Below are positions 43,872-44,033 of a stretch of DNA of 64,000 bases, piece after piece. The position numbers and the translations under genes are program-made. Where the stretch lies: assembly GCF_009914755.1 (NCBI RefSeq), contig NC_060943.1; one strand, written 5' to 3'. Positions within the stretch are counted from its first letter, which is position 1. Each line of letters starts with the position of its first letter. Under the pieces are notes generated by a model. That model ran no database searches, had not been told where the DNA came from, and was given only the letters and a program-made list of their open reading frames with translations. The stretch is from the human T2T-CHM13v2.0 reference genome, Homo sapiens.

Positions 43872-44033
43872 GACAGCTCCTTCAGGGGACACGTTGGTAG
43901 CGTGGAGGACTCCCTCAGGCTTCTCACATCAGAGAGATCATTGTCTCCCAGGCTGAGGAAGTTGAGACTTGTGTTCTCAGTGAGTTTGAGAAAGAGCTGA
44001 CAAATCTGGTAGGTAAGGCCACAGGACTCCAAC
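43872..44033 (-). CDS. NLRP13: Cryptic/skipped in-frame LRR exon in NLRP13 intron 7 (162 nt)
   Basis: gtgatag|G ... TC|gtaagt, phase 2-2, no stop; [54 protein letters not shown]. Confidence 0.6.

What the first reader, a model, noticed from the sequence alone, without database searches (positions are those of the whole stretch)
43872..44033. Hidden, still-open LRR exon in NLRP13 intron 7
Seen: a 162-nt minus-strand segment bounded by AG and GTAAGT, in phase 2-2 like the neighbouring LRR exons and with no stop. It encodes [54 protein letters not shown], which keeps the LxxCxL...NxSLxxLxLGDNxL...CxLxxL pattern. Recalled: canonical NLRP13 (1043 aa) runs KYLC-LEKC, i.e. it skips this exon. It is 3 codons shorter than the 171-nt norm, lacks the GVxxLCeAL motif, and has a weak pyrimidine tract (ctgtctcggggcctctgtgatag). 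Inference: an ancestral LRR module being lost by acceptor decay, or a rarely included cassette exon adding 54 aa.
Basis: partly seen in the sequence, partly recalled or inferred. Interest (0 to 1): 0.85.

Follow-up and report, generated by a model that had tools for sequence, protein, structure and literature searches.

The report
Unannotated conserved NLRP13 LRR cassette exon
Intron 7 of human NLRP13 holds an intact copy of a leucine-rich-repeat exon that gene models of macaque and many other mammals use, so it is an old alternative exon missing from the human annotation, not a newly found kind of element.

Summary
Window 43872-44033 (minus strand) is 162 nt, bounded by AG and GTAAGT. It is open in the frame of the neighbouring NLRP13 LRR exons, and inserting it keeps the reading frame.

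It is not chance. Its peptide matches macaque NLRP13 proteins at E about 1e-23, at exactly the same exon junction. It is the only unannotated place in the window hit by 12 of 12 orthologues.

Of 110 mammalian NLRP13 cluster representatives, 37 carry the whole exon, 5 carry part and 68 lack it. At least 11 species have both forms. So it is an ancient, alternatively included cassette exon.

The features read as decay are ancestral. The 162-nt length is shared by monkeys. The missing GVxxLC motif is missing in all mammals. The G-run in the acceptor tract is also inferred for dog, bear and camel.

None of the 4 hominoid representatives includes it. Whether human oocytes splice it in could not be tested.

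An inverted Alu pair flanks the exon, but it is not listed as hominoid-specific.

Modest interest: a likely gap in the human annotation.

The parts
43872..44033 (-). 162-nt LRR cassette exon, the orthologue of the macaque NLRP13 exon that encodes residues 840-893 of the 1121-aa model. It is not in human RefSeq.
44034..44066 (-). Acceptor region: AG at 44035-44034, a pyrimidine tract broken by GGGG, and a TAAC branch-point-like motif about 27 nt upstream (seen by eye; the consensus is recalled). The same 33 nt are read as 11 extra codons in camel, bear and dog models.
43866..43871 (-). Donor GTAAGT. The in-frame TAA inside it ends the stop-to-stop ORF 43868-44086.
45129..45293 (-). Annotated upstream LRR exon (165 nt). 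Its last two bases, TG, give W with the cassette or C without it.
42271..42441 (-). Annotated downstream LRR exon (171 nt).
44291..44617 (-). Alu ('C'), 258 nt upstream of the acceptor in the transcript, inverted relative to Alu 'B'.
43373..43746 (+). Alu ('B'), 126 nt downstream of the donor in the transcript. It pairs with Alu 'C' in the predicted fold.

Best explanation
The segment is the intact human orthologue of an ancient NLRP13 leucine-rich-repeat cassette exon.

Shown: in other mammals' gene models the exon lies between the same two LRR exons and is sometimes included and sometimes skipped. When included it adds 54 residues. These are one canonical ribonuclease-inhibitor-type repeat (LxxCxL...[15 protein letters not shown]) and an irregular Pro/Ser-rich second half that has never carried the GVxxLC helix motif. 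The junction residue changes from C to W. Because the exon is 162 nt and both flanking introns are phase 2, skipping or including it keeps the frame, as for LRR exons of other NLR genes.

Inferred: in human the exon is skipped in the reference mRNAs. An ancestrally weak acceptor favours this, and a flanking inverted Alu pair that can loop the exon out may add to it. I think it is still spliced in at some level in the germline (oocyte or early embryo), giving a 1097-aa isoform. That last step is not shown.
For: Orthology:
- 89-94% identity to macaque and douc langur NLRP13 at the junction KYLW|LESCGL...|LEKC.
- 12 of 12 orthologues hit this place, and no other unannotated place in the window, by tblastn.

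Age and constraint:
- The exon is present in 37 (plus 5 partial) of 110 mammalian representatives.
- The human translation is 59.0% identical on average to 11 non-primate copies. The annotated exons 47900 and 45129 score 50.6% and 57.1%.
- All 26 positions conserved at 80% or more are kept in human.

Cassette behaviour: both forms occur among representatives of Macaca mulatta, Felis, Neofelis, two Panthera species, Acinonyx, Prionailurus, Suricata, Canis, Ursus maritimus, Bubalus and Bos.

Splice signals: AG and GTAAGT, with a donor like the neighbours'. The weak tract is ancestral.

LRR nature: full-length alignment to ribonuclease inhibitor (E 1.1e-6) and to NLRP1, NLRP3, NLRP14, NLRP9 and NLRP5 chains.

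Known precedent for modular LRR exon skipping: passages of PMC6642158.

Room in the human annotation: in a human oocyte Iso-seq study, every NLRP13 isoform name found in the held supplements is 'HON', meaning novel against GENCODE V48. I read 20 rows. 'NLRP13' occurs 48 times in file 1, and NLRP13-FSM and NLRP13-ISM occur 0 times.
Against: - No hominoid representative includes the exon (0 of 4: human, orangutan, two gibbons). 7 of 10 Old World monkey representatives also lack it.
- Human RefSeq on T2T has no model with it (hub table).
- The acceptor tract is the weakest of the NLRP13 acceptors in the window.
- The exon lies inside an inverted Alu pair that folds into a stem of about 290 bp. 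Passages of PMC13019027 link such pairs to skipping, especially with weak acceptors.
- An intact frame has little force. On the human branch since the split from Old World monkeys only about 4-5 neutral substitutions are expected in 162 nt. This is my own rough estimate from recalled rates.
- The oocyte isoforms may be 'novel' for other reasons, such as alternative ends. No exon coordinates were readable.
Confidence: 0.55

Rival explanations
1. Same origin, but dead in hominoids. The exon is no longer recognised by the spliceosome in apes and human. It is intact only because too little time has passed for neutral decay to show.
For: - 0 of 4 hominoid representatives and no human RefSeq model include it (hub table).
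- It has the weakest acceptor tract of the gene's window exons.
- It is enclosed by an inverted Alu pair.
- There are only 2 human-lineage amino-acid changes (Y for H, R for K) against douc langur and macaque. That is compatible with either neutrality or constraint.
Against: - Neither the acceptor weakness nor the shortened length is human-specific.
- Macaque models with the same 162-nt form include it.
- The flanking Alus are not in the hominoid-specific list, so they do not separate apes from macaque.
- Both human-lineage changes fall at variable positions, and all 26 conserved positions are kept.
- Ape oocyte RNA data behind the gene models are probably scarce (inference).
Confidence: 0.4
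2. Hominoid-specific silencing by a newly inserted Alu. A young Alu created the inverted pair and switched an included exon to a skipped one in apes.
For: - The inverted pair lies 126 and 258 nt from the exon, with arms 78-92% complementary.
- The minimum-energy fold pairs them and loops out the exon.
- The mechanism and its link to weak acceptors are described in PMC13019027 (passages).
Against: - Supplementary Table S1 of PMC13019027 lists no hominoid-specific Alu between hg38 chr19:55,894,341 and 55,932,494, an interval that contains intron 7. The window-to-hg38 offset was checked on one listed AluSc.
- Both Alus are 11.9-12.7% from the in-window consensus, an AluS-like age.
- Skipping is also seen in non-primate models that have no Alus.
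- A third Alu next to Alu C can compete for pairing.
Confidence: 0.05
3. Not a real exon anywhere: a chance ORF, or an error of homology-based gene prediction copied between species.
For: Most supporting proteins are computational models. I saw no transcript evidence for any of them.
Against: - An open frame with 26 positions conserved at 80% or more runs across 25 sequences from several mammalian orders.
- Protein identity equals that of accepted neighbouring exons.
- It aligns in register to solved ribonuclease inhibitor and NLRP repeats.
- One macaque isoform joins the exon directly to the NACHT-side exon, which a pure homology copy would not produce (P0002).
Confidence: 0.03

Closest known systems
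NLRP13 LRR exon of macaque and other mammalian gene models (for example residues 840-893 of the 1121-aa Macaca mulatta protein, P0003)
   Same: Same place between the same two exons. Same 162-nt length in simians. Same junction residues W and S. 91% identical to macaque and 96% to douc langur.
   Different: It is not in any human RefSeq model, nor in any of the 4 hominoid representatives seen. Human carries Y and R where both monkeys have H and K.
Alternatively spliced LRR exons of NLR genes, such as NLRP3 exon 5 (PMC6642158)
   Same: A frame-neutral exon that encodes an LRR pair, with the boundary at the same point of the repeat, so that skipping removes a whole building block (passages).
   Different: The NLRP3 exons are exactly 171 bp and canonical. 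This one is 162 nt with an irregular second repeat. Its inclusion in human is unproven, and no functional consequence is known.
Exons looped out by inverted intronic Alu pairs (PMC13019027; PMC2533698 seen only in a search listing)
   Same: An inverted Alu pair within 300 nt on each side, a stable predicted stem, and a weak 3' acceptor.
   Different: The pair is not listed as hominoid-specific. No splicing effect was measured. The exon is also skipped in mammals without Alus.

Membership tests
Ribonuclease-inhibitor-type LRR exon module of NLRP genes | Sequence of an LRR pair (LxxLxLxxNxL core) that aligns with solved ribonuclease inhibitor and NLRP repeats | tested here: met
   residues 2-52 align to the ribonuclease inhibitor unit (E 1.1e-6) and to NLRP1, NLRP3, NLRP14, NLRP9 and NLRP5. 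Pfam LRR_6 reaches only E 0.099 and 13.2 bits, below the 23.4 cutoff, for the 53-aa piece alone.
Ribonuclease-inhibitor-type LRR exon module of NLRP genes | Exon of 171 nt encoding 28+29 residues | tested here: not met
   It is 162 nt. The orthologous exon is 171 nt in most non-primates, 165 nt in lemur and canids, and 162 nt in all simian models. The neighbouring annotated exons of 165 and 168 nt also deviate.
Ribonuclease-inhibitor-type LRR exon module of NLRP genes | Phase 2-2 boundaries at the same point of the repeat | tested here: met
   1 leading and 2 trailing bases, like the five internal annotated NLRP13 LRR exons in the window; the terminal LRR exon shares the 1 leading base.
Ribonuclease-inhibitor-type LRR exon module of NLRP genes | Second repeat carries the DxGVxxLCxAL helix motif | tested here: not met
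   the motif is absent in human and in all 24 aligned orthologues, so this is ancestral and not a human loss.
Orthologue of the mammalian NLRP13 cassette exon | Same position between the same flanking exons, and sequence identity | tested here: met
Alternatively included cassette exon in human | Frame-neutral, with AG and GT signals | tested here: met
Alternatively included cassette exon in human | Human transcripts that contain the exon | not testable with these tools
   No RNA-seq is available here. The oocyte Iso-seq supplements that were readable give isoform names and expression but no coordinates.
Inverted-Alu loop-out skipped exon | An inverted Alu pair close on both sides with a stable predicted stem | tested here: met
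Inverted-Alu loop-out skipped exon | Hominoid-specific member of the pair (for a lineage-specific switch) | tested here: not met
   none is listed in the interval; both have an AluS-like divergence.

The most novel reading that the evidence does not exclude
Human oocytes and early embryos include this exon in a substantial share of NLRP13 mRNA. The real germline protein would then be 1097 aa with an extra, conserved, irregular LRR pair. The reference 1043-aa protein would be the skipped form. This could be part of why all NLRP13 isoforms named in a human oocyte long-read study count as novel against GENCODE V48.
Probability: 0.18. Interest if true: 0.5.

Novelty: new member of a known kind. 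Interest (0 to 1): 0.3.

Why it matters
NLRP13 is a little-studied NLRP gene of the reproduction-related group, and rodents appear to have lost it (PMC2735741, passages). It therefore cannot be studied in mouse. If the exon is used in human, the reference protein lacks a conserved LRR pair, and variant interpretation, antibodies and structural models of NLRP13 would need the longer form. If it is silent in apes, it is a clean example of an exon about 90 million years old that was switched off without being broken. In either case the phenomenon is already known: modular LRR exons that are skipped or included.

Tried and rejected
- Structure prediction of the macaque 1121-aa protein from alignment A1 was not accepted (tool not ready). 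There is no model showing how the exon sits in the horseshoe.
- Rfam found nothing in 43300-44700.
- I looked for other hidden LRR exons. tblastn with the window's own LRR peptides and with 12 orthologues found none. No relic of this exon turned up in NLRP4.
- I looked for a fourth copy of the 69-nt N-terminal repeat exon and found none.
- The hominoid-specific Alu switch was tested against the published list and is not supported.
- Literature searches:
  - 'NLRP13 exon': 46 papers, 20 listed.
  - 'NLRP13 isoform oocyte': 6 papers.
  - 'NLRP13 NLRP4 NLRP8 evolution LRR': 32 papers, 10 listed.
  - Passages of PMC2735741, PMC12730308, PMC6524185 and PMC6642158.
  - None describes this exon. NLRP13 is not named in the main text of PMC13019027 or PMC13019944.
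- Not done, for lack of data or tools: MaxEntScan or SpliceAI scores, primate genomic alignment of the splice sites, dN/dS, population variants, a GENCODE/Ensembl check, and RNA-seq junctions.
- Cluster members are hidden behind representatives. A hominoid model with the exon could sit inside the macaque-led cluster of 17.

Full report
**What is there.** On the minus strand, window 43872-44033 is a 162-nt stretch. It is preceded by ...ctgtctcggggcctctgtgatAG and followed by GTAAGT.

- The annotated NLRP13 LRR exons in the window each begin with 1 base that completes a codon, and the five internal ones end with 2 bases of the next codon; the terminal exon 33280-33454 ends on a whole codon at the stop. 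That is intron phase 2-2 for the internal exons.
- In that register the stretch reads LESCGL...PLKEL without a stop. The other two frames carry three stops each.
- Spliced between exons 45129-45293 and 42271-42441 it keeps the frame to the normal stop. The junction codons become W and S.
- The human reference protein (P0011, 1043 aa) reads KYLC-LEKC at that point.

**It is homologous, not chance.**

- Within the window the peptide resembles other LRR exons only weakly: 39% over 56 residues, E 0.022.
- Against a 5.8-billion-protein set it matches three primate NLRP13 proteins at E 1e-22 to 1e-23. These are a 1121-aa Macaca mulatta protein (representative of 17 sequences), a 1048-aa macaque isoform X3, and a truncated Pygathrix model.
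- In all three the match lies exactly where the human exon would go...NLKYLW|LESCGLTH...KQLS|LEKCSLS....
- tblastn of 12 orthologues against the window found one unannotated place only, this one. It was hit by 12 of 12.
- The peptide aligns end to end with the 57-residue unit of ribonuclease inhibitor (E 1.1e-6) and with LRRs of solved NLRP1, NLRP3, NLRP14, NLRP9 and NLRP5 chains. Pfam LRR_6 alone stays below its cutoff for the short piece.

**How old and how used.** A search with the macaque LRR region gave 302 hits, of which the best 120 were listed.

- I dropped 10 that are fish or NLRP12/14/3-like proteins. I scored the other 110 for the exon's conserved core: 37 carry the whole exon, 5 carry part, 68 lack it.
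- By group, counting representatives with the whole exon:

| Group | With whole exon |
|---|---|
| Hominoids | 0 of 4 |
| Old World monkeys | 3 of 10 |
| New World monkeys | 2 of 5 (one unnamed, monkey-like) |
| Strepsirrhines | 1 of 2 |
| Carnivores | 13 of 35 |
| Artiodactyls | 10 of 26 |
| Bats | 4 of 16 |
| Eulipotyphlans | 2 of 3 |
| Perissodactyls | 1 of 3 |

- One bat scored as 'absent' (Saccopteryx) shows a truncated piece of the exon.
- At least 11 species have representatives both with and without it: Macaca mulatta, Felis, Neofelis, Panthera onca, P. pardus, Acinonyx, Prionailurus, Suricata, Canis, Ursus maritimus, Bubalus and Bos.
- Some felid isoforms keep it while skipping the next exon.
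- These are mostly computed gene models, and I saw no transcript evidence for them. The pattern is nonetheless that of a cassette exon.

**Constraint.**

- An alignment of the human translation with 24 orthologous exons shows 26 positions conserved in at least 80% of sequences. The human copy keeps all of them.
- Its mean identity to 11 non-primate copies is 59.0%. The accepted human exons 47900-48070 and 45129-45293 score 50.6% and 57.1%. The four later LRR exons score 63.5-69.4%.
- That level, without frame breaks, across lineages separated for roughly 90 million years means long purifying selection. The date is recalled.
- It says little about the last 25 million years. Human differs from douc langur at 2 of 53 residues (Y for H, R for K) and from macaque at 5. 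Under my rough recalled rates, a neutral 162-nt stretch would also most likely still be open.

**The supposed signs of decay are ancestral.**

- The exon is 171 nt in most non-primates, 165 nt in lemur and canids, and 162 nt in every simian model, including those that use it.
- The second half lacks the GVxxLC motif in all 25 sequences.
- The acceptor tract really is the poorest in the gene: pyrimidine fraction 0.60 against 0.70-0.90.
- However, camel, polar bear and dog models that start the exon 11 codons earlier read xCLxxGxxGR through that stretch. The human intron reads [11 protein letters not shown] in the same frame.
- The W-G and R-G codons imply the same G-run in those species. So the weak tract is old, and 'acceptor decay in human' is not supported. 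This is an inference from proteins, since I had no genomic DNA of other mammals.

**Alus.**

- The exon lies between two Alus of opposite orientation. One is at 43373-43746 (+), 126 nt past the donor in the transcript. The other is at 44291-44617 (-), 258 nt before the acceptor. Their arms are 78-92% complementary.
- Folded alone, the 1245-nt stretch pairs the two Alus almost end to end and loops out the exon (-645.8 kcal/mol; no shuffle control at that length).
- Passages of PMC13019027 report that such pairs promote loop-out skipping, above all for exons with weak acceptors.
- Could this be an ape-specific switch? That paper's Supplementary Table S1 lists no hominoid-specific Alu between hg38 chr19:55,894,341 and 55,932,494.
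- I recalled the gene's hg38 span to derive the offset (hg38 = window + 55,862,678). I checked it on the listed AluSc at 55,888,312-55,888,613 (+). That lands on window 25,634-25,935, a masked Alu of the same orientation.
- Both flanking Alus are 11.9-12.7% from an in-window consensus, typical of old AluS elements. A third Alu beside the upstream one can compete for pairing.
- The pair may lower inclusion in catarrhines generally. It does not explain a human-macaque difference, and non-primates skip the exon without any Alu.

**Human usage: open.**

- Human RefSeq on T2T has two transcripts and neither uses the exon (hub table). I could not check GENCODE.
- A single-oocyte Iso-seq paper (PMC13233917) classifies isoforms against GENCODE V48 and calls everything that is neither a full nor an incomplete splice match 'HON' (passages).
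- In the held supplements I read 20 NLRP13 rows, all HON, several of them highly expressed. 'NLRP13' occurs 48 times in that file, while 'NLRP13-FSM' and 'NLRP13-ISM' occur 0 times.
- The text says Ribo-seq supports translated ORFs of NLRP13 isoforms.
- No coordinates were readable, the files are cut, and the figure is in a PDF I could not open. Other oocyte NLRP genes also have dominant HON isoforms.
- So this shows only that the human annotation of NLRP13 is incomplete in the tissue that matters. It does not show that this exon is used.

**Verdict.**

- The finding is real, and the 'ancestral module' and 'cassette' ideas are right in kind.
- The exon is already present in predicted transcripts of many species.
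- What remains new is that the human copy is intact, unannotated, and shows no decay beyond the state found in monkeys whose gene models include it.
- My odds: about 55% that it is still included at some level in the human germline, about 40% that it is silent in apes, and a few percent for the other readings.

Noticed in passing
window 62294-62362, 61917-61985, 61241-61306 (minus strand): Three tandem exons of 69, 69 and 66 nt with near-identical flanks (84-86% nucleotide identity over about 185 nt) each encode an acidic 23-residue repeat (GNxQxQGCQDPNQEE...). The macaque proteins P0002 and P0003 carry four such repeats. No fourth copy is hidden in the window.
   Followed up: partly
window 44034-44066 (minus strand): Camel, polar bear and dog NLRP13 models extend the cassette exon 11 codons upstream (xCLxxGxxGR). 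The human intron is open and similar in that frame ([11 protein letters not shown]). However, it has AA rather than AG at 44068-44067, where the matching in-frame acceptor would lie.
   Followed up: partly
window 42705-42856: A (TA/CA)n microsatellite of about 150 nt sits inside the Alu at 42575-42996 in NLRP13 intron 7.
   Followed up: no
P0002 (macaque isoform X3), C-terminus: This model continues past the usual ...LQKLG end with 39 more residues. It also skips the two LRR exons before the cassette. The longer end may correspond to the human alternative 3' exons 33327-33454 and 29021-29450 in the hub table.
   Followed up: no
PMC13233917 supplements (human oocyte Iso-seq): For NLRP4, NLRP5, NLRP8, NLRP9, NLRP11, NLRP13 and NLRP14, the isoform listed per gene in the second supplement file is a novel (HON) one. 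For NLRP2 and NLRP7 it is a full splice match. The reference models of this oocyte gene cluster look incomplete as a group.
   Followed up: no
window 5032-5199 (NLRP4) and 45129-45293 (NLRP13): The irregular short LRR exons of the two neighbouring genes (168 and 165 nt) are each other's best match (54% over 28 residues). NLRP4 has no detectable counterpart of the cassette exon that follows in NLRP13.
   Followed up: partly
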